From positions 1 to 34,644 of the forward strand of contig JAJYJX010000001.1 of the NCBI GenBank assembly GCA_021789095.1: 34,644 nucleotides of DNA. The letters run 5' to 3'. The notes below the pieces were generated by a model. It did not search any database. It was not told where the DNA came from and saw only the letters and a program-made list of their open reading frames with translations. The position numbers and the translations under genes are program-made. Origin of the DNA: a bacterium (GTDB lineage: Bacteria > JAMCPX01). Positions 5,009-33,996 of this stretch are shown piece by piece. The first letter of the stretch is position 1. Each line of letters begins with the position of its first letter.

Positions 5009-6865
5009 TTATCGTGGTAGTTTGCTTATGATCTGCTTCAGTATGGCAGCGTCTTCTTGATAGGGGTCAAGGTAAAGGCTCATTTCAATGGCTTTTCTTG
5101 CTGCATAAGTGTTGTTTGTATATTTCAAATAAAATTCTCCGAGTAGCCTGTAAAACACGGCATTGTCCTGGTGTGATGCTATTATCTCCTTTAACAAGGA
5201 TATTGCCTTCTCTGTTTTGCCATTATTAGCGTAAAAGTCGGTAAGCTCATCTATAAAATCAAGATTATATGGATCTGTCAGAACACAGGTTCTGAGCTCC
5301 TTCTCATAATCAGTGTAGTCCTTTGTTTTCTGGTAATAAACAGCAAGTAAGTGCCTGTAATTTACGTTGTCAGGCGCATACTTTATAGCCTTTTTAATAT
5401 AGAGAAGTGCCTTGCCATACTCCTTGTTCTGCAAATAGTAAAGACTGAAGCCTGCCAGGATATCCGTATCATATGGATTTAATTTCAACCCTGTCTCAGC
5501 CTGTTTCAGTGCCTCGGGTATTTTGTTGTCAGCGACAAGTGCCCATGCATACATTTTATGACCAAAATAATAATCAGGAAGTTTCTCGGTTACATTTCTC
5601 CAGAGATGCTCGTCGTCTTTCCATACACCTACCCTCTGATAAGCAAGTATACCGAAAACAAGTAAAATAATACCTGCTACTGCGATACCGGGTTTTCTGG
5701 TACTCTGTGTAGTATAAAGGTATTCAAGCCCCATGCCGATCAATACATAAATGCCTATGGATGGCAGGATCAGATTAATATTTGTGAAATTATATACCGG
5801 CAGTATACCAAACCCGGGGATCATGTTTGCAAAATACCATGACATCCAGAAAAAGCCTGAATGATGCTTTCTGTAGAGATGGATCATAAGATATAGGAAT
5901 GCCGCCAGTAGTATAATGCTTATGACAAGCCTTGGCGAGAACAGGTTGTATATTACGGATTGAGGATAGAGGGAAACGAGCTTGAATGGCAGGACGATCC
6001 TGTTCGGGTATCCCAGTATGCCTGAGATGTTTGGTATCAACGAAAGGATATGACTGGAAATGTTTCCACCGGTAAGTCCGTTTTTATTCATGAGTATCTG
6101 TCCGATTAAAAATATAGATACAGATATGGCGGATATTATGTAGAATGGAAGCTGAATAAAAAAGATACTCAAAAAATGTTTTCTGTAAATGTACCATTCC
6201 ATTATCAGGATTATAAGTACAACTGTTGCGGCGGATTGTTTTGTCAGGATTGCACAGAGGAATGCAAGTAAACTTACCGCATAAGACAACCTGCTGCCTT
6301 TCTTTATAAAGGAGTTATATTCAATCAGCGCTACAAGGGCAAAGAAAACGGACTGTGTACTGCCGAGTGCTGAAACCCATGCTGCCGAGTCAACATTTAC
6401 GGGCGCGAGCAGAAATAAGATTGCAGCTATCGCTGCTGTGAACCCCGTTAAAGAACCCTGCTCTTGAACAGTTGGTACCGCCGGTGAATCTGGTTCAGAG
6501 GCTTTCTCCAACGGGGTGAACACTGTTTCGATCCTTTTTACAAAAAGGTAAACGAGCATTGCGTCGGCGATGAATATCAAGGCATTCAATGCGTGAAGCC
6601 ACAAAGGCTTAATGCCCGTTATACTGTAGATCAACATGTAAGTGAACAGGTGGAATGGTCCATAAAATCCGTTGTTATAGTAATGTGTAAAAATGTATCG
6701 TATGTTGTGAAATGTTAACCCCTTTATGGAAGGATCGTTTGTTATAAAAAGACTGTCGCCCCAGCTTAAAAGCGGGAATGATAATACGCGGTGATATATT
6801 ATTATACCCAGTACTGCCAGTATAAAGAGTACCAGTTTGTCATTTATTGTTTGTTTGTTTTCCAT
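5009..6865 (-). CDS. Polytopic GT-C-type (PMT/TMTC/ArnT-like) glycosyltransferase fused to C-terminal TPR repeats, paralog B
   Basis: The N-terminal roughly 400 aa has many hydrophobic helices and a first-loop motif LLSWGDSLFITNDP. The conserved WYFANMIPGFGI segment is shared with the upstream paralog. The C-terminal roughly 200 aa are TPR-like (ALKQAETGLKLNPYD, YIKKAIKYAPDN). Confidence 0.6.
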   Translation of the reverse strand: MENKQTINDKLVLFILAVLGIIIYHRVLSFPLLSWGDSLFITNDPSIKGLTFHNIRYIFTHYYNNGFYGPFHLFTYMLIYSITGIKPLWLHALNALIFIADAMLVYLFVKRIETVFTPLEKASEPDSPAVPTVQEQGSLTGFTAAIAAILFLLAPVNVDSAAWVSALGSTQSVFFALVALIEYNSFIKKGSRLSYAVSLLAFLCAILTKQSAATVVLIILIMEWYIYRKHFLSIFFIQLPFYIISAISVSIFLIGQILMNKNGLTGGNISSHILSLIPNISGILGYPNRIVLPFKLVSLYPQSVIYNLFSPRLVISIILLAAFLYLMIHLYRKHHSGFFWMSWYFANMIPGFGILPVYNFTNINLILPSIGIYVLIGMGLEYLYTTQSTRKPGIAVAGIILLVFGILAYQRVGVWKDDEHLWRNVTEKLPDYYFGHKMYAWALVADNKIPEALKQAETGLKLNPYDTDILAGFSLYYLQNKEYGKALLYIKKAIKYAPDNVNYRHLLAVYYQKTKDYTDYEKELRTCVLTDPYNLDFIDELTDFYANNGKTEKAISLLKEIIASHQDNAVFYRLLGEFYLKYTNNTYAARKAIEMSLYLDPYQEDAAILKQIISKLPR

Positions 6866-26227: not shown

Positions 26228-27247
<1,020 letters not shown>

Positions 27248-27566
27248 CCGGTGCAAAGGATTTCATGAACCATGGGAACCATGGGGACAGCGACCGTTTT
27301 CGTTTATATTTTGACAAAGAAATCTGGGGACAACCCCCATATTATTAAGAGCAATAAGTCAGCTAACAAGTAAATCTGCAATCTCCAAAAACCCCGGGCC
27401 ATGATAGGGCGGGTAGGGAATAAGTTAGGGTGGAACCATGCTTCGACTTAAAAATTGAGTTTTTTGACCCCGTTAGAAAGTCACGCCTGAGTGCACAGTA
27501 ACGCATATCTACTGATGAGGCATATAAAGTAACTTTGGCGTGCAGGTACGTCCTTTCTGACGGGAT

Positions 27567-28076
27567 CTATAATATCTCCACAGCGCAGATGATGATCATG
27601 ATGATCGCTATGATGCCTTTGAAGATCGTGCCTTTTAACCTTCCTATTGCGGACACCCATCCCTTGTGCAACGCGTCGGCTGCCTTCTTGTTTTCTATTA
27701 TTGACACTGCAAACGCGCCTGCAAAGGCCCCGAGCACGGCACCTATGATCGCGCCTATGCCGAGCAGGAACGGAGCAAGCACAATGGATCCGGCGATCGC
27801 CCCTAGTATGGATGCTGTCATTGCCTTGCGGGAAACGCCCGCTTTTCTTGCGTCCTTTATGCCGAACAGCGTTTCCCCAAGTTCCGCAATAATCGTGAGG
27901 ACCGCGAGCACGATGACGGTATACCAGCCGATGTAGTGCGCCTTTGTCAGCAGGACAAATATTAAGACAGATACAAATTCTATAATGGTCCCGGGCAGAC
28001 CGAACACAATGGAAATGGTTGCAATGCCCATAACAACAAACAGGAGTATAATAAAGAATATATGCAGTGCTGTCAT
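27567..28076 (-). CDS. DUF456-family small membrane protein
   Basis: It has four hydrophobic segments and the pattern GLPGT...ELGE...RKAGVSRKA...G-rich helices that I associate with DUF456. It starts 1 nt after the accD stop. Confidence 0.55.
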   Translation of the reverse strand: MTALHIFFIILLFVVMGIATISIVFGLPGTIIEFVSVLIFVLLTKAHYIGWYTVIVLAVLTIIAELGETLFGIKDARKAGVSRKAMTASILGAIAGSIVLAPFLLGIGAIIGAVLGAFAGAFAVSIIENKKAADALHKGWVSAIGRLKGTIFKGIIAIIMIIICAVEIL

Positions 28077-28077
28077 A

Positions 28078-28923
28078 TTACGAAGCAGTGAGCTTCTTCT
28101 CTGTATTCCCGAGGAGTCTTATGATTTGGGTGATCGTTTTCTTTATCACTTTTCTCTCGATAACCATGTCGATCATGCCGTGCTCGAGCAGGAACTCCGC
28201 GCGCTGGAACCCCTCGGGCAATTTCTGGCCTATGGTATCCGATATGACCCTTGGTCCTGCGAAGCCTATCAAAGCCTTTGGTTCAGCTATTATTATATCA
28301 GCAACACTTGCAAAGCTCGCAGCAACCCCGCCTGTCGTCGGGTCAGTGAGGAGTGCAAGGTACAGGGTCTTGTTCTTCTTAAGCCTGCTTAATGCCGCAT
28401 TTGTTTTTGCCATCTGTACAAGCGAGAAGATGCCTTCCTGCATCCTGGCCCCTCCCGAAGATGTAACGATCAGAAGGTTTGATTCTTCCTGCGCGGCCTT
28501 CTCTATCAGTCTTGTAATCTTTTCACCCACAACGCTGCCCATGCTCCCGCCCATGAAATTGAAGTCGAATATCCCGATATTGATGAACATGTCGTTCAGG
28601 GTTCCGTATCCTGTAACAACAGCGTCGTTTACACCTGCTTGTTTCTGTGCCTCTTTCAGCTTGTCCCTGTATCTTGACCTGTCTTTGAAATCGAGCGGGT
28701 CGATTGACTCGATGTTGTCCCATAATTCATGAAAGGTGTTCTGGTCAATGAGTATATCGATCCATTCCTTTGCAGACATCCTGAAGTGATAGTTGCACTT
28801 CGGACAGACCTTCAGGTTCTTATCGACCTCTTTCTTATAGACGATCTCGCCGCAGTTGTTGCACTTTAACCACAGGCCATCAAGGCTGCTTTTTGTTTTA
28901 CTGTCAGAACCAAACAAGGGCAT
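28078..28923 (-). CDS. accD: Acetyl-CoA carboxylase carboxyltransferase beta subunit
   Basis: It has an N-terminal zinc ribbon (CNNCGEIVYKKE...CPKCNYHFRMSAKEWID) and a carboxyltransferase core (GGSMGSVVGEKI, SGGARMQEG). Confidence 0.92.
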   Translation of the reverse strand: MPLFGSDSKTKSSLDGLWLKCNNCGEIVYKKEVDKNLKVCPKCNYHFRMSAKEWIDILIDQNTFHELWDNIESIDPLDFKDRSRYRDKLKEAQKQAGVNDAVVTGYGTLNDMFINIGIFDFNFMGGSMGSVVGEKITRLIEKAAQEESNLLIVTSSGGARMQEGIFSLVQMAKTNAALSRLKKNKTLYLALLTDPTTGGVAASFASVADIIIAEPKALIGFAGPRVISDTIGQKLPEGFQRAEFLLEHGMIDMVIERKVIKKTITQIIRLLGNTEKKLTAS

Positions 28924-28924
28924 T

Positions 28925-29686
28925 TTATATTTTTATAACCTGGTTAAGCTTTACAGCTTCCATATGCAGGCCTTTCTTCTGCTTCAATTCTTTTACAACC
29001 TGTTTATAGAACTGGGGCTTTATATGGTAGACATAAACAGGGACATTCCTGCTGATCTTGCGTACCTCCTGCGCAACCATCTTAGGCGTCAGATGCTTTG
29101 ACAGGATTGAAAGTTCTTCTTTCTCATCAGGGTATGAACACTCTATGAATACTGCCTTCAGGTTATCTTTCTTTGATGCCATCTCCCAGATCCTGTCTGT
29201 CGGCCCTGTATCAGAACTGAACACCACGCTGCTTTTACCGTCATCCAGTATAACCCCGGATGCCGGTACCGTATGACTGACAAGACACAGCGTAACTTTC
29301 AGGCCGTCGATCTCGATCGTAGATTCACTCTCTGCTTCTTTCATCCTTATGACAGGTTTTTCCTTGCTGGGTATCTCCGTAAAGTCAGGCCAGATGTGCC
29401 AGTTCAACAGGTGTTGTTTTATATGGCTGAGCACAACAGGCATGCCGTATATGGTAAACCCCTTGCCGTTTACGCTGACGCTGTTATCGGCAAGGAACAG
29501 GGTATCCCTGCAGTGGTCAGCATGGGCATGGGTAAGAATGACATGCTCTACCCGGAGCTGTTCTTTTAAGGTGAGCACACCGGTGATCGCACCGCCGTCA
29601 AGTATAACGCTTTTGTTTATAAGGAATGAAGTTGTCCTGAAGTTGGGCAATTCACCGCCGTGACAGCCCAGCACTCTTATATTCAT
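28925..29686 (-). CDS. MBL-fold hydrolase resembling class II 3',5'-cyclic-nucleotide phosphodiesterases
   Basis: MNIRVLGCHGGELPNFRTTSFLINKSVILDGGA and the metal motif THAHADH resemble the class II PDE (CpdP/Pde1-type) layout. It lies 6 nt downstream of a cNMP-binding regulator gene. Confidence 0.55.
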   Translation of the reverse strand: MNIRVLGCHGGELPNFRTTSFLINKSVILDGGAITGVLTLKEQLRVEHVILTHAHADHCRDTLFLADNSVSVNGKGFTIYGMPVVLSHIKQHLLNWHIWPDFTEIPSKEKPVIRMKEAESESTIEIDGLKVTLCLVSHTVPASGVILDDGKSSVVFSSDTGPTDRIWEMASKKDNLKAVFIECSYPDEKEELSILSKHLTPKMVAQEVRKISRNVPVYVYHIKPQFYKQVVKELKQKKGLHMEAVKLNQVIKI

Positions 29687-29692
29687 GGCTCC

Positions 29693-30340
29693 TCACATCC
29701 CCTCGAACTGCTCTTTCATCACAAGGTAATCAAGATATTTTTTCAGGTTGTCATAGTTTCTGATCAATATGCCGTTGTTCGTCAGCTCTATAAGCCTGTT
29801 TTTGGCAAGCCTGTCCACTATCTCGCCCACCTTGTTTTTCTCCAGCCCCGTTGTAATGGCCAATTTCTCAACATCAAGCTTCAGGAAGGTGTCTGTGTCT
29901 ATCTTTGTACCGCTTTCAGCCAGTTTAAGCAGCGTAACGATGACCCTCTGGTTCGAGTCCTTTATCATAAGGTTCGCTATCTGGACATCCGCATCTTCGA
30001 GTCTTTTTGCAAGGATCCTTATTATTCGCAAGGCTATCTCCGAGTTGCTGCGGATCATTGTATCGAATGTACTGTTGTTAATGACGAGCATTTTCGCGTC
30101 TTCCACAACTTCTGCACTTGCGGAACGCGGCTTTTTATTCAGGAGCGACATCTCTCCGAAGAAATCGGACTGGCTGAGCACTGCGAGGACCTTTTCATTG
30201 CCGCCCACTTCTTTGAAAATCTTCACCTTGCCTGTGTTGATGATGTACATGTCTTCCCCTGTATCCCCCTCACGAAAGAGTATCGTGCCTTTTGGGAATA
30301 CCTTGCCAAACCTTTTAAACAGTTCATCTTCCATAAACAC
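29693..30340 (-). CDS. Crp/Fnr-family transcriptional regulator (cNMP-binding domain plus C-terminal HTH)
   Basis: cNMP-binding motifs are FREGDTGEDMYIINTGKVKI and FFGEMSLLNKKPRSASA. The HTH region is LAITTGLEKNKVGEIVDRL. The RBS AAGGGG lies just upstream of the ATG. Confidence 0.85.
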   Translation of the reverse strand: MFMEDELFKRFGKVFPKGTILFREGDTGEDMYIINTGKVKIFKEVGGNEKVLAVLSQSDFFGEMSLLNKKPRSASAEVVEDAKMLVINNSTFDTMIRSNSEIALRIIRILAKRLEDADVQIANLMIKDSNQRVIVTLLKLAESGTKIDTDTFLKLDVEKLAITTGLEKNKVGEIVDRLAKNRLIELTNNGILIRNYDNLKKYLDYLVMKEQFEGM

Positions 30341-30440
30341 CCCTTGTCAGGATAATTTATATTTCATAGCATATTTAAGGGCTTTTGTGCAAAATATAGT
30401 AACGGGAATTAAGGAGCGAAGGGTGATGTGTCCGGGAATG

Positions 30441-30536
30441 CTAAAATACTATTACTCCGAGCTTTATAAGCTTGTACAGTCTTTTCATTACTTCAAATTG
30501 CTCAACAGGGTTGATTATCTGCAGGATCTCTTCCAT
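30441..30536 (-). CDS. Possible 31-aa small ORF, or the 3' remnant of a winged-helix-like domain
   Basis: It encodes MEEILQIINPVEQFEVMKRLYKLIKLGVIVF. The same frame stays open upstream to 30647 with domain-like sequence (IPKLNINDRDIVKYNLDKVDGYSS) but no ATG, GTG or TTG. The RBS is poor. Confidence 0.2.
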   Translation of the reverse strand: MEEILQIINPVEQFEVMKRLYKLIKLGVIVF

Positions 30537-30644
30537 GGAAGAATAACCGTCTACCTTATCAAGGTTATATTTTACAATGTCCCGATCGTTTATATTTAAT
30601 TTCGGGATCTTTTTGAAATTGTGGAGTTTCTGTTTTCGATGCTG

Positions 30645-30693
30645 ATTCTAACACGGGTAAACTTACAGATTACTTACATATTACTTACAGATT
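30645..30693 (-). promoter_or_regulatory. Candidate activator-dependent promoter: three 11-bp direct repeats plus an extended -10
   Basis: The plus strand carries ACTTACAGATT (30661-30671), ACTTACATATT (30672-30682) and ACTTACAGATT (30683-30693). On the minus strand the repeats are followed by 10 nt and then TGtTAGAAT, with TG at 30653-30652 and TAGAAT at 30650-30645. There is no -35 hexamer. Confidence 0.45.
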
Positions 30694-30723
30694 GCAGAAT
30701 AGAAAAGACAAGGGGGAATGCCG

Positions 30724-33700
30724 TTAATATTTCCTTTGTAAGGAGGTATAGATTTCCCGGGTTTTGGAAGATGGCTCTATACCAAGGTTTTCTTTAAGGT
30801 TCTTATAACATGAATGATATATTGATATTGCCTCTGCATTTTGCCCAATCAGGATATAGCACGCCATCAACCGCTGATAGAATATTTCTTGAAGATGATC
30901 AACCATCAGTCCCTTATTGTAATATTCTATTGCTGCTTTCCACTCTCCATTTGCCTCACAGTACTGTCCCGCTTCTTCCAGTATATTTAAAAGCCTTCTT
31001 TGCAGCCTTTCACGATAATTCTCCGCCCAGGGGTGTGATAATTCTTTACCGAGAAATGTCCCGCGGTAAATGGATAAAATATGACTTATTATACTTGAAA
31101 TCCCATCCTGTACACCATGGGAAGTCCTGATGCCGGATGCAGAATATTTATGTCTTTTTCGTGATCCAGTCCCAGTGTTTACAGGATGATTCTTTAAAAA
31201 TGTTTCAGCTTTATCTAACCAATGCTCAATCGCCCATGTATCCACCCAACAATATCTTTTATCCAGCGTAAGCTTGCCTGCGTTGAATACTATTGCCCTG
31301 TCATTACCGAGTAATTTTCTCAGGCGGTGCAGGTTTGTGTCAAAGGCATGCTTGGCTCTATCACCGTCAGCATCTTCCCATAATGCATCAATTATATGTT
31401 CCTCACTTACGTCTTCTCCGCCGGATGCGAGGAGTACTTGAAGCAGTTCTACGGGTTTTTGGGGGACCTTCCCATTGAATCCTAATTGTTTATCTTCAAT
31501 AAACAGCTTCGGGCTCCCAAGGGTGAAGACTTTCACCGGCCATGGCCAGTCTTTGCATTCCAATGGAGGTGTATCCGGCATAAGATTTCGTTTCTTGATA
31601 AGGCTTTTCACATACTCTTTATTGATGCCAGCCTCAAGTGCTTTGACACACAGCTTGGCCATAGCAGACGGCCGCCAGCCCGGAAAGTTTACATATCCCA
31701 TATCCTGTCCAAGCTGCATTGCCCTGCGGAGAAATCTTAAACCCGATCTTTCGTTATGTTGATCAAATGCAAACAAGGCCTTTGCTATAAGATACATATA
31801 TTTAAAATGCCTCTGCTTCCTGCAGATTCGATATGTTTTGTTGAGGTAGTACAATGCCCTGGTATCTTCTGAAAGTTCGTGGAGGATTTGAGACATTTGC
31901 AGGGAGGTGAGCACTATCAGGTTTACGTCGCCTGTTTCGATAGCCGGTTTCATGCCCGTTTTCTGACTGTCGTATGTAGAAACAAAATCCTCTCTCATCA
32001 TAGCCTCGCCGGTTGAAACAATATAATATAAGGCGCGATCATACGCCCCTGCCTGTCCTATTGTTTTAGAGATCTTTTGTAAAAGCTGCCTTCCATGCTG
32101 GACATTTCCGGAACTCAGCATCCATGCGGCACCAAACGTTAAAAGTGGATGATCCATTACCTGGATTCCCGTGGTTTCAGCTACTTTTATCCCGTCGTAT
32201 AATGCCTTAAATTCAGGATCAGACACTGCCGTATACCAGCTGTATAAAACTTCTATGACCTTGAGTGTAAGAAACGTCAGGGGAGAAATCTGGTCTGAAT
32301 AAGTCAGTTTTCTCAATGGTGCAATGATCGTGTCCTCCATTGAGATATCCCCTACCGTTGAGTAGTAAAGAGCTATAATGGTACTTAATTGTATTCGCAG
32401 CTCAATAGTATCGCTGCTTTCTAAAAGAAGCGTAGCACGATTCAGCCATTTTTTAATCTTTGGATTAAAGTGCTGTCTGAAATTTAAGGCAAAGAGCATC
32501 TTAGCTACTGCTATTTTTTCTATTTCCGTAGAGGGGAAATCCTTCCTTTTTTTTACAAGCTTTTCCATGATATTTATCCATGGATCGTAGAGCCTATAGT
32601 TTCCAAGCCCATAGAATACAGAATCAACAGCCCCTGTCCACGCCATAAATATCCCGTTTTTATCTTTATTTTTTGTGAGCAGCTTGAACGCTTTTGCAAA
32701 GTAAGCGTGGCTTTCTCCGGGATTAAATGGCAATCTGCATGCACCAAACCAGTAGATAAGCCACGGGTTATTTTCACGCAGAGCATCCGGTATTCCCCTG
32801 AGCCATGCCTCCAGCGTCTGGTTCCTGCCCTGGGAAATAAGCTCTTTTGCATGGAGCAGGATCAACCGTATAACCTCCGTCCAGTCCTGCGATTGATAAA
32901 ACAAGGCAACGGCATCTTCTATGTGTCCTTCTTTTTCCAATACCATCCCTGCACGGCGCTGAACCTCCGACAGTGTTTTCCGGCTCCACACATTCATTGC
33001 CCTTGAAATCAGGAACCCCCTGAACAGGTCATGGTATTGATATACAGCTTCTGAACCTGCATGCCGCGATGTAAAGTAGTGCGAATCGGCAAGGTTTTCC
33101 AAGATTCTCTCGGGAGGCGGATATCCCATAAGCTTCTCTATCATGCCTATCGTCATTTTCGGTAAGAATGCGGTTTTCAGAAAAAAGTCCTGCATCTTCG
33201 CATCTACTTGCCTGAATATCTCGGTTGCGAAATAATCAAACACCCCGGGTGTGGAGCGCGGTATAATCGATGGTCCCTCAATATTTTCCAGCCTCGCTCT
33301 CTCCAGCATAAGGATCAATCCCGCTGCCCATCCTTCCGTTTTTGCATGCAGCTGCTTTATGGTGTCTTCCGGTATTTTTTTGAACCCTCTGGCCCGGATC
33401 AGCTTTTTTGATTCCTGCATGGTGAATTTTATATCATCCCACCCGATAAAATGGATCATGTCCTTTGCCAGGAGCCTGCTGAATACGGCGGGCGGATTGA
33501 TTCTGCTTATAATAATGACATTGATCCCGTCTGGAGCTATCGCAAGACCTTCTGCGAGCAACTCATGGAGTTTTGAATCAGGGTGCAGTTCATGGTAGTT
33601 GTCGAATACGATTGTGGATGGATACCTTAACCTGCCGTATAGATTTTCAAAATACCGTCTTGTAAATATAGCAATACCGGACAAGTATTCGGGTGTGAGC

Positions 33701-33996
33701 ATGGGCAGACGATCTTTTTCCCATGGAGCGGCGTTCTTTCCGGCAAGTCCCATGTAATAAAAGAATGTCGCTATATCATCGTCCCCTTTATCCATCTGAT
33801 ACCATAAACACCCGAGTTTCTTTTTCTCTATAAAGCTGCTTACCAGTACGGTCTTGCCTGATCCGGGCGGTGCAGAGACCCATATAATCCGGCGATCCAT
33901 TTTACGGACAAGCAGACGGAACAGTCTGTCCCTGTTTATAATGCCTTTGGGACTCTGCCGTATGATTTTGGATAGATGGCCATCTTTTGATTTCAT
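30724..33996 (-). CDS. STAND-class (MalT-like) P-loop NTPase with helical/TPR-like sensor region and C-terminal SARP module (OmpR-type wHTH plus BTAD)
   Basis: Walker A is SAPPGSGKT and the MalT-like context is LGCLWYQMDKGDDDIATFFYY. The Walker B-like motif is IVFDNYHEL. The C-terminal wHTH is VKVFTLGSPKLFIEDKQLGFNGKVPQKPVELLQVLL...ALWEDADGDRAKHAFDTNLHRLRKLLG. The BTAD is YRGTFLG...EIFYQRLMACYILIGQNAEAISIYHSCYKNLKENLGIEPSSKTREIY. The RBS GGAGG (34002-34006) lies 5 nt upstream of the ATG. Confidence 0.8.
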   Translation of the reverse strand: MKSKDGHLSKIIRQSPKGIINRDRLFRLLVRKMDRRIIWVSAPPGSGKTVLVSSFIEKKKLGCLWYQMDKGDDDIATFFYYMGLAGKNAAPWEKDRLPMLTPEYLSGIAIFTRRYFENLYGRLRYPSTIVFDNYHELHPDSKLHELLAEGLAIAPDGINVIIISRINPPAVFSRLLAKDMIHFIGWDDIKFTMQESKKLIRARGFKKIPEDTIKQLHAKTEGWAAGLILMLERARLENIEGPSIIPRSTPGVFDYFATEIFRQVDAKMQDFFLKTAFLPKMTIGMIEKLMGYPPPERILENLADSHYFTSRHAGSEAVYQYHDLFRGFLISRAMNVWSRKTLSEVQRRAGMVLEKEGHIEDAVALFYQSQDWTEVIRLILLHAKELISQGRNQTLEAWLRGIPDALRENNPWLIYWFGACRLPFNPGESHAYFAKAFKLLTKNKDKNGIFMAWTGAVDSVFYGLGNYRLYDPWINIMEKLVKKRKDFPSTEIEKIAVAKMLFALNFRQHFNPKIKKWLNRATLLLESSDTIELRIQLSTIIALYYSTVGDISMEDTIIAPLRKLTYSDQISPLTFLTLKVIEVLYSWYTAVSDPEFKALYDGIKVAETTGIQVMDHPLLTFGAAWMLSSGNVQHGRQLLQKISKTIGQAGAYDRALYYIVSTGEAMMREDFVSTYDSQKTGMKPAIETGDVNLIVLTSLQMSQILHELSEDTRALYYLNKTYRICRKQRHFKYMYLIAKALFAFDQHNERSGLRFLRRAMQLGQDMGYVNFPGWRPSAMAKLCVKALEAGINKEYVKSLIKKRNLMPDTPPLECKDWPWPVKVFTLGSPKLFIEDKQLGFNGKVPQKPVELLQVLLASGGEDVSEEHIIDALWEDADGDRAKHAFDTNLHRLRKLLGNDRAIVFNAGKLTLDKRYCWVDTWAIEHWLDKAETFLKNHPVNTGTGSRKRHKYSASGIRTSHGVQDGISSIISHILSIYRGTFLGKELSHPWAENYRERLQRRLLNILEEAGQYCEANGEWKAAIEYYNKGLMVDHLQEIFYQRLMACYILIGQNAEAISIYHSCYKNLKENLGIEPSSKTREIYTSLQRKY

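What the first reader, a model, noticed from the sequence alone, without database searches (positions are those of the whole stretch)
27567..30340. accD is embedded in a tightly coupled operon with a Crp-like cNMP sensor and a cNMP phosphodiesterase-like enzyme
Four minus-strand genes are separated by only 6, 1 and 1 nt. In order they are a Crp/Fnr regulator (30340-29693), a class-II-PDE-like MBL hydrolase (29686-28925), accD (28923-28078) and a DUF456 membrane protein (28076-27567). A sensor and degrader pair for a cyclic nucleotide, co-transcribed with the committed-step enzyme subunit of fatty-acid synthesis, is not a standard arrangement. It suggests second-messenger control of, or feedback from, membrane lipid synthesis. 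That control may sit under the upstream STAND-SARP regulator.
Basis: partly seen in the sequence, partly recalled or inferred. Interest (0 to 1): 0.6.

Follow-up and report, generated by a model that had tools for sequence, protein, structure and literature searches.

The report
Cyclic-nucleotide signalling genes fused to accD
A cyclic-nucleotide sensor gene and a gene for an enzyme that probably destroys the signal are packed into one operon with accD, a key fatty-acid-synthesis gene. The same kind of signalling genes sits directly in front of accD in at least five distant bacterial groups, which suggests an unstudied link between cAMP/cGMP signalling and membrane-lipid synthesis.

Summary
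**Observation: confirmed.** Four minus-strand genes lie 6, 1 and 1 nt apart: a Crp-like cNMP receptor, a class-II-type MBL phosphodiesterase, a bona fide accD, and DUF456. All eight members of this uncultured lineage keep Crp-PDE-accD, with 0-2 nt between the PDE stop and the accD start. They also share a promoter just upstream of crp.

**The arrangement is widespread.**
- cNMP-signalling genes occupy the slot directly upstream of accD(-folC), often between trpA and accD.
- The slot holds the Crp-like receptor, a CHASE2 cyclase, GAF-HD-GYP, the PDE, or a cNMP-gated MscS-like protein.
- Carriers include Myxococcus (crp-like, class-II PDE, accD, folC), Bdellovibrionota, Zetaproteobacteria and Nitrospirota.
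- One Nitrospirota genome holds a decayed cassette in the slot.
- I found no paper describing this.

**Limits.**
- Myxococcus xanthus RNA-seq shows accD transcribed mainly from its own start in the 63-nt spacer.
- The Crp-like protein lacks the canonical DNA-reading residues, and no CRP box is present.
- It carries a strongly conserved extra C-terminal helix.
- The upstream STAND-SARP gene is specific to this genome.

**Verdict:** a real, conserved and tightly coupled operon. A functional link between cNMP signalling and accD is plausible but unproven.

The parts
30387..30392 (-). -35-like hexamer TTGCAC of the conserved crp-proximal promoter
   Evidence: The block CTTTGCAC is conserved in 7 of 8 clade members whatever the upstream gene (alignment A2; sequences).
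30363..30371 (-). Extended -10 element TGcTATGAA, 18 nt after the -35; predicted transcription start near 30356
   Evidence: TATGCTATGAAAT is conserved in 7 of 8 clade members. The consensus scan did not list it, because that scan requires T at position 6 of the hexamer.
29693..30334 (-). Crp-like cNMP receptor, 213 aa from ATG 30334. It has a cNMP-binding barrel, a long C-helix, a winged-helix domain with a non-canonical recognition helix, and an extra conserved C-terminal helix (residues 194-211).
   Evidence: Pfam. Best solved relatives are T. thermophilus CRP, GlxR and Mtb CRP. The AF2 model has pLDDT 84.
28925..29686 (-). Class-II-type (MBL-fold) cyclic-nucleotide phosphodiesterase-like enzyme, 253 aa, cytoplasmic, with all metal ligands present
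   Evidence: PF02112 scores 48.4 bits against a cut-off of 23.7. H53, H55, D57, H58, H138, D159, H198 and H221 are invariant in the family alignment. The best solved sequence relative is yeast PDE1, E 1.8e-17. The AF2 model has pLDDT 96.6. Foldseek hits are YhfI, PDE1 (TMq 0.83), RNase Z and Apyc1.
28078..28923 (-). accD, the acetyl-CoA carboxylase carboxyltransferase beta subunit, with its Cys4 zinc ribbon. Its ATG lies 1 nt after the PDE stop and it has no Shine-Dalgarno site of its own.
   Evidence: TIGR00515 scores 395.8 bits against a cut-off of 317.45. PF17848 is present. The junction is conserved at 0-2 nt in 8 genomes.
27567..28076 (-). DUF456 membrane protein; its ATG lies 1 nt after the accD stop
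   Evidence: PF04306 scores 87.3 bits. It is present after accD in L002, L003, L005, L006 and L134, and absent in L001, L004 and L007.
27325..27339 (-). Terminator-like hairpin followed by a T-rich tail, about 230 nt after the DUF456 stop; a candidate operon end
   Evidence: Consensus scan only.
30661..30693 (-). Three phased 11-nt repeats (SARP-box-type distal promoter) that point toward the operon
Evidence: Direct repeats found. No terminator-like site or stable structure lies between them and crp.

Best explanation
**What it is.** This is a single operon reading crp-like receptor, class-II-type cNMP phosphodiesterase, accD, DUF456.
- It is transcribed from its own conserved sigma-70-type promoter: TTGCAC, 18 nt, TGcTATGAA.
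- accD and DUF456 lack their own ribosome-binding sites. They most likely depend on termination-reinitiation coupling to the ORF in front.

**Where it fits.** It is the most compact form of a widespread arrangement.
- Cyclic-nucleotide signalling genes occupy the slot immediately upstream of accD(-folC).
- These genes are the receptor, a CHASE2 cyclase, GAF-HD-GYP and the PDE.

**Most likely logic.**
- The receptor-PDE pair is a self-limiting cAMP/cGMP signalling unit. The PDE supplies negative feedback on the signal.
- Co-expression ties production of the carboxyltransferase beta subunit to the same cNMP-responsive control. Malonyl-CoA and fatty-acid synthesis capacity would follow.

**Shown:** gene identities, spacing, promoter conservation, and recurrence of the linkage across phyla.

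**Inferred:** that the Crp-like protein controls this promoter or ACC, the sign of that control, and the ligand (cAMP or cGMP).
For: **Anatomy.**

**Clade conservation.**
- Gene order is kept in the clade.
- The junction is 0-2 nt in all eight genomes.
- The promoter is conserved.

**PDE-seeded scan of species genomes.**
- 21 of 80 loci have accD directly downstream.
- 7 more have a single opposite-strand gene in between.

**accD-seeded scan.**
- 13 of 78 loci outside the clade have a cNMP-related gene directly upstream of accD.
- The baseline order there is trpB-trpA-accD-folC.

**Contents of the slot (Pfam).**
- GAF-HD_5 alone: L083.
- GAF-HD_5 plus PDE: L082, L091.
- PDE alone: L089, L090, L008, L043.
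- Crp-like alone: L122.
- Crp-like, CHASE2 cyclase, PDE: L106, L115, L120.
- MscS-like channel with a cNMP-binding domain: L118.
- Pseudogene remnants of Crp, cyclase and PDE: L103.

**Phylogeny.**
- The accD tree follows taxonomy.
- The 'cNMP gene upstream' state needs at least 5 changes, so the state is kept or regained repeatedly.

**PDE identity.**
- The best solved relative by sequence profile is yeast PDE1.
- CHASE2 cyclases lie next to PDE homologues in other phyla.
- The M. xanthus homologue is the DK1622 protein annotated 'cAMP phosphodiesterases class-II'. A class-II PDE of that species, PdeE, was characterised enzymatically (Kimura et al. 2011, cited in PMC13087886).
Against: - In M. 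xanthus RNA-seq, accD is transcribed about 5-fold above the PDE gene. A 5' end piles up at L030:6832 and depth rises from about L030:6820. Read-through from the PDE gene is only about 7% of the accD signal after background subtraction.
- The Crp-like recognition helix lacks R-E-x-x-x-R and is not conserved between lineages.
- No CRP box or palindrome lies at the promoter.
- In several genomes the PDE gene sits before folC with no accD (L041, L063, L024, L026, L034, L038). The PDE-Crp module also occurs in unrelated contexts (Betaproteobacteria, Acidobacteriota, FCPU426).
- No transcript data exist for the window's organism.
- I could not check whether the genome holds a second accD, because the genome search was shut.
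Confidence: 0.5

Rival explanations
1. **Positional hitch-hiking.**
- The boundary between trpBA and accD-folC is a permissive, moderately expressed insertion site.
- cNMP genes landed there or were kept there without any functional tie to acetyl-CoA carboxylase.
- In the window clade, deletion of spacers then fused them into one operon.
For: - M. xanthus accD has its own transcript start.
- The slot content varies between genomes.
- The PDE gene precedes folC without accD in some genomes.
- The Crp-PDE module lives in other contexts (earlier scan notes).
Against: - Every insert in this slot that I could identify, in the sampled lineages, is cNMP-related.
- That includes non-homologous proteins: PDE, CNB-wHTH, CNB-MscS, GAF-HD and cyclase.
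- Such uniformity is hard to get without selection.
- The 0-2 nt coupling is maintained across eight diverged genomes with 60-81% PDE identity.
Confidence: 0.3
2. **Post-translational control.**
- The Crp-like protein does not act as a sequence-specific transcription factor.
- When bound to cNMP, it uses its conserved C-terminal helix to bind and gate a protein partner.
- The partner would be the PDE and/or the carboxyltransferase.
- The closest analogy is PII proteins binding BCCP to control ACC.
For: - The tail [FY]L-x-[YF]-LEMKEQFGE is conserved across the window clade, Nitrospirota, Myxococcota and FCPU426. The putative recognition helix is not.
- The AF2 model shows an extra helix at residues 194-211 after the wing.
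- No operator is detectable.
- HTH_Crp_2 scores below its Pfam cut-off.
- An earlier scan note (e1-1245678) raised the same idea. That note is not independent evidence.
Against: - The overall fold and sequence are closest to genuine DNA-binding CRPs.
- The winged-helix domain is intact.
- No interaction data or multimer model could be produced here.
Confidence: 0.15
3. **Not a cNMP phosphodiesterase.** The MBL protein might instead be an RNase Z/ELAC-type or other phosphodiesterase, such as a nuclease or a 2',3'-cNMP or other phosphodiester hydrolase. The 'sensor-degrader pair' reading would then be wrong.
For: - The fold search ranks YhfI, BA1088 and RNase Z next to PDE1.
- NCBIfam's best weak hit is RNase Z (48 bits).
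- Some JGI records call homologues 'ribonuclease BN'.
- The strict PROSITE-type HxHLDH signature is imperfect. The window has HAHADH.
Against: - The RNase Z models score far below their cut-off (48 against 252).
- At 253 aa the protein is short, like YhfI and Apyc1, and is probably too short to carry the tRNA-binding arm of RNase Z (the arm is from my own knowledge).
- Pfam PDEase_II scores above its gathering threshold.
- The profile search puts yeast PDE1 first by seven orders of magnitude.
- Homologues sit next to class III cyclases and cNMP-binding proteins in many phyla.
- The M. xanthus homologue is the annotated class-II PDE.
Confidence: 0.1
4. **Local SARP input.** In this genome the operon is additionally or mainly driven by the STAND-SARP activator, through the phased-repeat promoter at 30645-30693. 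That promoter would give a roughly 300-nt leader that reads into crp.
For: - The repeats point toward the operon.
- No terminator-like site or stable structure lies between them and crp.
- Earlier scan notes interpret the repeats as the activator's target.
Against: - The SARP gene lies upstream of crp only in this genome.
- Relatives with apgM or a permease gene upstream keep the same crp-proximal promoter.
- No transcript data exist.
Confidence: 0.3

Closest known systems
Myxococcus xanthus crp-like / class-II PDE (very probably PdeE, Kimura et al. 2011 J Bacteriol 193:2053) / accD / folC locus
   Same: - The gene order is the same: Crp-like, PDE, accD.
- The Crp-like proteins are 44% identical and the PDEs 39% identical.
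- The C-terminal tail of the Crp-like protein is conserved.
- The M. xanthus PDE is identical to the DK1622 protein annotated as a class-II cAMP PDE.
   Different: - M. xanthus has a 63-nt PDE-accD spacer, and accD has its own transcript start there.
- folC follows accD in M. xanthus, where the window has DUF456.
- The window has a 1-nt junction.
- The linkage to accD is not discussed in any paper I could search.
- The PdeE paper itself is not held, so equating this gene with PdeE rests on annotation.
Class II 3',5'-cyclic-nucleotide phosphodiesterases (yeast PDE1, PDB 4OJV; Vibrio fischeri CpdP; Dictyostelium PdsA)
   Same: - Both have the MBL fold and the H-x-H-x-D-H metal motif plus downstream His/Asp ligands.
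- Yeast PDE1 is the best solved sequence relative.
- It also gives the highest query TM-score, 0.83.
   Different: - The window protein is much shorter: 253 aa against 363-369 for PDE1.
- The motif reads HAHADH rather than HxHLDH.
- Identity to PDE1 is only 17%.
- The protein is cytoplasmic.
- It belongs to a bacterial subgroup that NCBI names '3',5'-cyclic-nucleotide phosphodiesterase'. Its chemistry is untested here.
CRP-family cAMP receptors (T. thermophilus CRP 4EV0, C. glutamicum GlxR, M. tuberculosis CRP, S. meliloti Clr with CHASE2 cyclases CyaD1/D2/K)
   Same: - The protein has a cNMP-binding domain with the canonical FGE...RSA phosphate-binding cassette, a C-helix and a winged-helix domain.
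- It is associated with CHASE2 cyclases in Nitrospirota, like the S. meliloti cyaD1-clr locus.
- GlxR's regulon includes fatty-acid biosynthesis genes (PMC10187061).
   Different: - The recognition helix lacks R-E-x-x-x-R.
- No CRP box is present.
- It has an extra, conserved C-terminal helix.
- It is encoded in one operon with its presumed target gene accD and with a PDE.
trpB-trpA-accD-folC conserved gene block of many bacteria
   Same: The slot occupied by the cNMP genes in relatives is exactly the trpA|accD boundary of this block.
   Different: In the window clade trpBA and folC are no longer adjacent. accD is flanked by the cNMP pair and DUF456 instead.
PII (GlnB/GlnK)-BCCP control of acetyl-CoA carboxylase
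   Same: It is a precedent for a small signal-transduction protein controlling ACC (from my own knowledge).
   Different: It involves a different protein family and a different ligand. No evidence of interaction exists here; this is an analogy only.

Membership tests
CRP/FNR superfamily (cNMP-dependent transcription factors) | N-terminal cyclic-nucleotide-binding domain with the phosphate-binding cassette (G-E ... R-[ST]-A) | tested here: met
   PF00027 scores 87.6 bits against a cut-off of 27.5. FFGEMSLLNKKPRSASA is readable in the sequence. G60, E61 and R70 are invariant in A3.
CRP/FNR superfamily (cNMP-dependent transcription factors) | C-terminal winged helix-turn-helix DNA-binding domain | tested here: inconclusive
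   PF13545 scores 25 bits, just under its cut-off of 27, but covers the full domain. The protein aligns through the HTH of T. thermophilus CRP. The AF2 secondary structure fits a wHTH. Foldseek's top hits are all CRPs.
CRP/FNR superfamily (cNMP-dependent transcription factors) | Recognition-helix residues that read DNA (R180/E181/R185 in E. coli CRP) and a palindromic operator | tested here: not met
   The window has K-N-K-V-G-E where CRPs have R-E-T-V-x-R, and the positions are not conserved between lineages. No TGTGA-N6-TCACA-like site lies upstream. No inverted repeat is at the promoter.
Class II cyclic-nucleotide phosphodiesterase (PF02112) | Match to the family model above the curated threshold | tested here: met
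   48.4 bits against a cut-off of 23.7. The match comes in two stretches and covers only part of the 340-position model.
Class II cyclic-nucleotide phosphodiesterase (PF02112) | HxHLDH metal-binding signature | tested here: inconclusive
   H53-A-H55-A-D57-H58. All four ligands are invariant in the family, but Leu is replaced by Ala in the window. Many relatives have HAHLDH.
Class II cyclic-nucleotide phosphodiesterase (PF02112) | Hydrolysis of 3',5'-cAMP/cGMP | not testable with these tools
   Indirect evidence only. Homologues sit next to class III cyclases and cNMP-binding proteins. The M. xanthus homologue is annotated as a class-II cAMP PDE, and a class-II PDE of that species was characterised (citation seen; the paper is not held).
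RNase Z / ELAC | Match to the RNase Z equivalog models; tRNA-binding flexible arm | tested here: not met
   NF000801 scores 48.1 bits against a cut-off of 252. TIGR02651 scores 43.9 against 292.95. The protein is 253 aa, like YhfI and Apyc1, and not about 300-320 aa.
AccD (acetyl-CoA carboxylase carboxyltransferase beta, TIGR00515) | Equivalog model above the trusted cut-off; N-terminal Cys4 zinc ribbon | tested here: met
   395.8 bits against 317.45. PF17848 scores 43.2 bits. CNNC...CPKC is readable in the sequence.
DUF456 (PF04306) | Match to the family model | tested here: met
   87.3 bits against a cut-off of 29.4, over the full model length.

The most novel reading that the evidence does not exclude
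**Proposal.** Cyclic-nucleotide signalling is an old, direct regulator of acetyl-CoA carboxylase in several bacterial phyla.
- The Crp-like protein of this subfamily is defined by its conserved C-terminal helix, not by a DNA-reading helix.
- It would bind the carboxyltransferase, and/or gate the partner PDE, in a cNMP-dependent way.
- cAMP or cGMP made by CHASE2 or other class III cyclases would then set malonyl-CoA supply post-translationally.
- The genes stay glued to accD for that reason.
Probability: 0.12. Interest if true: 0.8.

Novelty: new variant of a known kind. Interest (0 to 1): 0.55.

Why it matters
- Acetyl-CoA carboxylase catalyses the committed step of fatty-acid synthesis. Its known bacterial controls are FadR/FapR-type regulators, autoregulation by its own mRNA, PII-BCCP binding and acyl-ACP feedback (from my own knowledge).
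- I found no report of a dedicated cyclic-nucleotide input to it.
- The recurrent placement of cAMP/cGMP signalling genes directly upstream of accD points to such an input. Carriers include predatory, developmental, iron-oxidising and nitrite-oxidising bacteria.
- Because M. xanthus carries the arrangement, the idea can be tested directly in a tractable laboratory organism.
- It would also give a physiological role to a large family of bacterial class-II-type PDEs and to a CRP subfamily with an unexplained conserved C-terminal helix.

Tried and rejected
- **The genome search and the fetch from genomes were shut.** I could not check for a second accD, the location of accA/accB/accC, or the taxonomy of the window's genome.
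- **The search for related loci with the 19-sequence alignment failed.** Single-protein queries were used instead. The samples are therefore the 80 best species-level matches, not an unbiased census.
- **The PdeE paper (PMC3133037) is not held.** Searches for pdeE with MXAN tags, or for any paper linking accD with cNMP genes, found nothing relevant. PMC4320098 turned out to concern class III enzymes.
- **No RNA runs hold the window.** The only holder is a mine-drainage metagenome DNA run.
- **CRP-box search.** 13 loose matches in the window against 16 expected by chance, and none upstream of crp. The only repeats upstream are the known 11-nt direct repeats.
- **RNA checks.** Rfam finds nothing credible in 27200-30760. 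The 306-nt possible leader is no more structured than shuffles, z = 0.55.
- **No internal accD promoter found.** There is no conserved non-coding-like block in the last 120 nt of the PDE ORF. Absence in a scan is not proof.
- **The GCA...TGC symmetry between the -35 and the extended -10 was considered as an operator and rejected.** It follows from the promoter elements themselves and is a full palindrome only in L002 and L003.
- **My greedy ORF caller failed on high-GC Myxococcus loci.** tblastn-based architectures were used instead.


Full report
**1. The observation**

| Gene | Coordinates |
|---|---|
| Crp-like | 30340/30334-29693 |
| MBL-fold PDE-like | 29686-28925 |
| accD | 28923-28078 |
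| DUF456 | 28076-27567 |

- The spacers are 6, 1 and 1 nt.
- Pfam and NCBIfam confirm the identities. cNMP_binding scores 87.6 bits. HTH_Crp_2 scores 25 bits, just below its cut-off of 27.
- PDEase_II scores 48.4 bits against a cut-off of 23.7, alongside general MBL models.
- The accD equivalog TIGR00515 scores 395.8 bits against 317.45, and the ACC zinc ribbon is present. DUF456 scores 87.3 bits.
- The RNase Z models reach only 44-48 bits against cut-offs of 252-293.
- The crp start is better placed at ATG 30334. That ATG, the following codons and the AAGGRG Shine-Dalgarno site are conserved in all relatives.

**2. The operon in its own lineage**

- The window comes from a mine-drainage metagenome, and no RNA run holds it.
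- Seven species-level relatives in the genome collection keep Crp-PDE-accD. Their PDE identity to the window is 60-77%. Their records are labelled only 'bacterium' or 'Deltaproteobacteria bacterium'.
- The PDE stop and the accD ATG are 0-2 nt apart in all eight genomes. The last 120 nt of the PDE ORF show only codon-periodic conservation, with no promoter-like block.
- accD and DUF456 have no Shine-Dalgarno site of their own, which is readable directly in the sequence. Termination-reinitiation coupling is therefore the likely way they are translated. This is an inference.
- A promoter is conserved 20-90 nt upstream of crp in 7 of the 8 genomes: CTTTGCAC, spacer, TATGCTATGAAAT. In the window that is -35 at 30392-30387 and the extended -10 at 30371-30363.
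- This promoter is present whether the upstream gene is apgM (L001, L004, L007), a permease (L002, L003, L005) or the STAND-SARP gene. Only the window has the STAND-SARP gene there. The operon therefore has its own promoter.
- The SARP gene is a local insertion between apgM and crp.
- The phased-repeat promoter behind the SARP gene (repeats at 30661-30693) points toward the operon. Nothing terminator-like or structured lies in between. It may add a second, genome-specific input.
- DUF456 follows accD in only part of the clade.

**3. What the PDE-like protein is**

- The family is large: 424 hits. NCBI often names its members '3',5'-cyclic-nucleotide phosphodiesterase'.
- All MBL metal ligands are invariant: H53, H55, D57, H58, H138, D159, H198 and H221.
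- A family profile finds yeast PDE1 (4OJV, class II) as the best solved relative at E 1.8e-17. The next hits are at 1e-10: YhfI (6KNS; identified by its title) and RNase Z.
- The AF2 model is confident, with pLDDT 96.6.
- Foldseek places it among the short ELAC-like phosphodiesterases YhfI, BA1088 and Apyc1, together with PDE1 and RNase Z. PDE1 gives the highest query TM-score, 0.83. Fold alone therefore does not separate the cNMP-PDE and RNase Z readings.
- Gene context does separate them. Homologues lie next to CHASE2 class III cyclases (L076, L078, L080, L059, L060, L062, L106, L115, L120) and next to cNMP-binding proteins.
- The M. xanthus homologue is identical to the DK1622 protein annotated 'putative cAMP phosphodiesterases class-II'.
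- A class-II PDE of M. xanthus, PdeE, has been characterised enzymatically (Kimura et al. 2011, cited in PMC13087886). The paper is not held, so equating the two rests on annotation.

**4. What the Crp-like protein is**

- Its closest solved relatives are cAMP-binding CRPs: T. thermophilus CRP, GlxR, M. tuberculosis CRP and E. coli CAP.
- The phosphate-binding cassette FGEM...PRSASA is canonical.
- The putative recognition helix reads K-N-K-V-G-E where CRPs have R-E-T-V-x-R. It differs again in the Myxococcus and Nitrospirota orthologues.
- No CRP box or inverted repeat lies upstream.
- By contrast, the C-terminal tail [FY]L-x-[YF]-LEMKEQFGE is conserved from this clade to Nitrospirota, Myxococcota and candidate division FCPU426.
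- In the AF2 model (pLDDT 84) the tail forms an extra helix, residues 194-211, after the wing.
- This marks a distinct CRP subfamily whose output mechanism is open.

**5. The linkage to accD is widespread**

*PDE-seeded scan (80 species genomes).*
- accD lies directly downstream of the PDE gene in 21 loci.
- In 7 more Bdellovibrionota loci, one opposite-strand gene is inserted between them.
- The carriers are:
  - the window clade;
  - Myxococcaceae (Crp-like, PDE, accD, folC);
  - Zetaproteobacteria (trpB, trpA, PDE, accD, folC);
  - Bdellovibrionota (rsmI, with or without GAF-HD-GYP, then PDE, accD, folC).

*accD-seeded scan.*
- The baseline order is trpB-trpA-accD-folC.
- 13 of 78 loci outside the clade carry a cNMP-related gene directly in front of accD.

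| Slot content | Loci |
|---|---|
| GAF-HD_5 | L083 |
| GAF-HD_5 + PDE | L082, L091 |
| PDE | L085, L089, L090, L116, L117 |
| Crp-like alone | L122 |
| Crp-like, CHASE2 cyclase, PDE | L106, L115, L120 |
| PDE, ECF sigma, MscS-like channel with a cNMP-binding domain | L118 |

- L103 contains frame-broken remnants of the Crp-like gene, the cyclase and the PDE in that same slot. Its accD is sister to that of L106, which has the intact cassette.
- The accD tree follows taxonomy, so accD is inherited vertically. The 'cNMP gene upstream' state needs at least five changes. The PDE tree tells the same story.
- Non-homologous cNMP proteins recur at one slot across at least five phylum-level lineages. 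Either repeated acquisition or very long retention explains this, and both argue for selection.

**6. Evidence that limits the functional reading**

- I laid M. xanthus RNA-seq (run X27, stranded raw reads) on L030.

| Region | Sense depth |
|---|---|
| crp-like gene | about 80-120 |
| PDE gene | about 35-60 |
| 63-nt PDE-accD spacer | about 40 |
| accD | about 180-300 |

- Background on the opposite strand is about 25.
- 5' ends pile up at L030:6832, and depth rises from the accD ATG at 6820.
- In that organism and condition, accD is therefore made mainly from its own start. Read-through contributes only a few per cent.
- The PDE gene also sits in front of folC without accD in some genomes (L041, L063, and four Bacteriovoracaceae).
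- The PDE or the Crp-like gene also occurs in unrelated contexts. In Betaproteobacteria the PDE gene is followed by a large ORF that looks by eye like a GAF plus PilB/GspE-type ATPase, which I did not verify. In FCPU426 the Crp-like gene precedes a polyprenyl synthase gene and nuoAB.
- The adjacency is therefore frequent but not obligatory. Co-transcription is strict only where the spacer has been lost, as in the window clade.

**7. Interpretation**

- Best supported (about 0.5): a self-limiting cNMP receptor/PDE unit is co-expressed with accD, and in this clade translationally coupled to it. It is one version of a conserved association that ties carboxyltransferase supply to cNMP signalling.
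- Rivals:
  - neutral positional hitch-hiking at the trpA|accD boundary (about 0.3);
  - post-translational action of the Crp-like protein through its conserved C-terminal helix on the PDE or ACC (about 0.15, the most novel reading);
  - a non-cNMP substrate for the MBL enzyme (about 0.1).
- SARP-driven read-through may be a local extra input (about 0.3) and is compatible with any of the above.

**8. Novelty**

- All the parts belong to known families.
- Full-text searches found no description of the conserved placement of cNMP genes in front of accD. They also found no description of the CRP subfamily with the conserved C-terminal helix.
- Notes from other windows of this scan record the same Crp-PDE pair. 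One of them is between trpA and accD (e1-1248577). Those notes are leads, not evidence.
- I rate it a new variant of a known kind, of moderate interest. It is directly testable in M. xanthus.

Noticed in passing
L103:2996-3928: A Nitrospirota genome carries frame-broken remnants of the Crp-like gene, the CHASE2 cyclase and the PDE between trpA and accD. It is a decaying copy of the cassette that is intact in its sister genome L106.
   Followed up: yes
L009, L011, L018, L019, L026, L031, L035, L042 (Bdellovibrionota); L082, L083, L091 (Nitrospirota): A GAF + HD_5 (HD-GYP-type) phosphodiesterase gene shares the slot upstream of the class-II-type PDE gene and accD. Two different nucleotide phosphodiesterases are therefore kept side by side. 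The substrate of the GAF-HD enzyme is unknown.
   Followed up: partly
L166-L186 (candidate division FCPU426), e.g. L166:4992-6732: The same Crp-like subfamily, with the conserved LEMKEQFGE tail, sits between a PorV-like gene and a polyprenyl synthetase gene followed by nuoA and nuoB. No PDE or accD is nearby. This is another lipid-pathway gene directly downstream.
   Followed up: partly
L030:6757-6900 (M. xanthus): The RNA-seq 5'-end pile-up at 6832 lies 12 nt inside the accD reading frame that starts at ATG 6820, the homology-supported start (MAWFSKK...). Either the mRNA is leaderless or near-leaderless with under-represented extreme 5' ends, or translation starts at a later ATG (6892). A GGCCG-N4-CGGCC hairpin/palindrome lies between the putative -35 and -10.
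   Followed up: no
L024, L026, L034, L038, L041, L063: The PDE gene is followed by folC with no accD at the locus. Where accD lies in these genomes could not be checked because the genome search was shut.
   Followed up: no
window 30724-33996 against L001, L004, L007: The STAND-SARP regulator gene is an insertion between apgM and crp relative to three relatives, where apgM is about 100 nt from crp. L007 has a fragment 44% identical to its N-terminus about 5 kb downstream of accD instead.
   Followed up: partly
window 30441-30536 (minus strand): A 31-codon ORF (MEEILQIINPVEQFEVMKRLYKLIKLGVIVF) lies between the SARP-box promoter and the crp-proximal promoter. It is absent from the relatives' shorter upstream regions.
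   Followed up: no
L066-L074, L079 (Nitrosomonas and other Betaproteobacteria): A separate PDE clade is always followed by a roughly 790-aa ORF. By eye that ORF combines a GAF-like N-terminus with a PilB/GspE-type secretion ATPase (GPTGSGKTT). This is a different conserved partner for the same enzyme family, not verified with Pfam.
   Followed up: no
L017, L022, L025, L027, L037, L046, L064 (Bacteriovoracaceae): A single large opposite-strand gene (about 620-780 aa, low-complexity, secreted-looking) has been inserted between the PDE gene and accD. It splits the pair while both stay in place.
   Followed up: no
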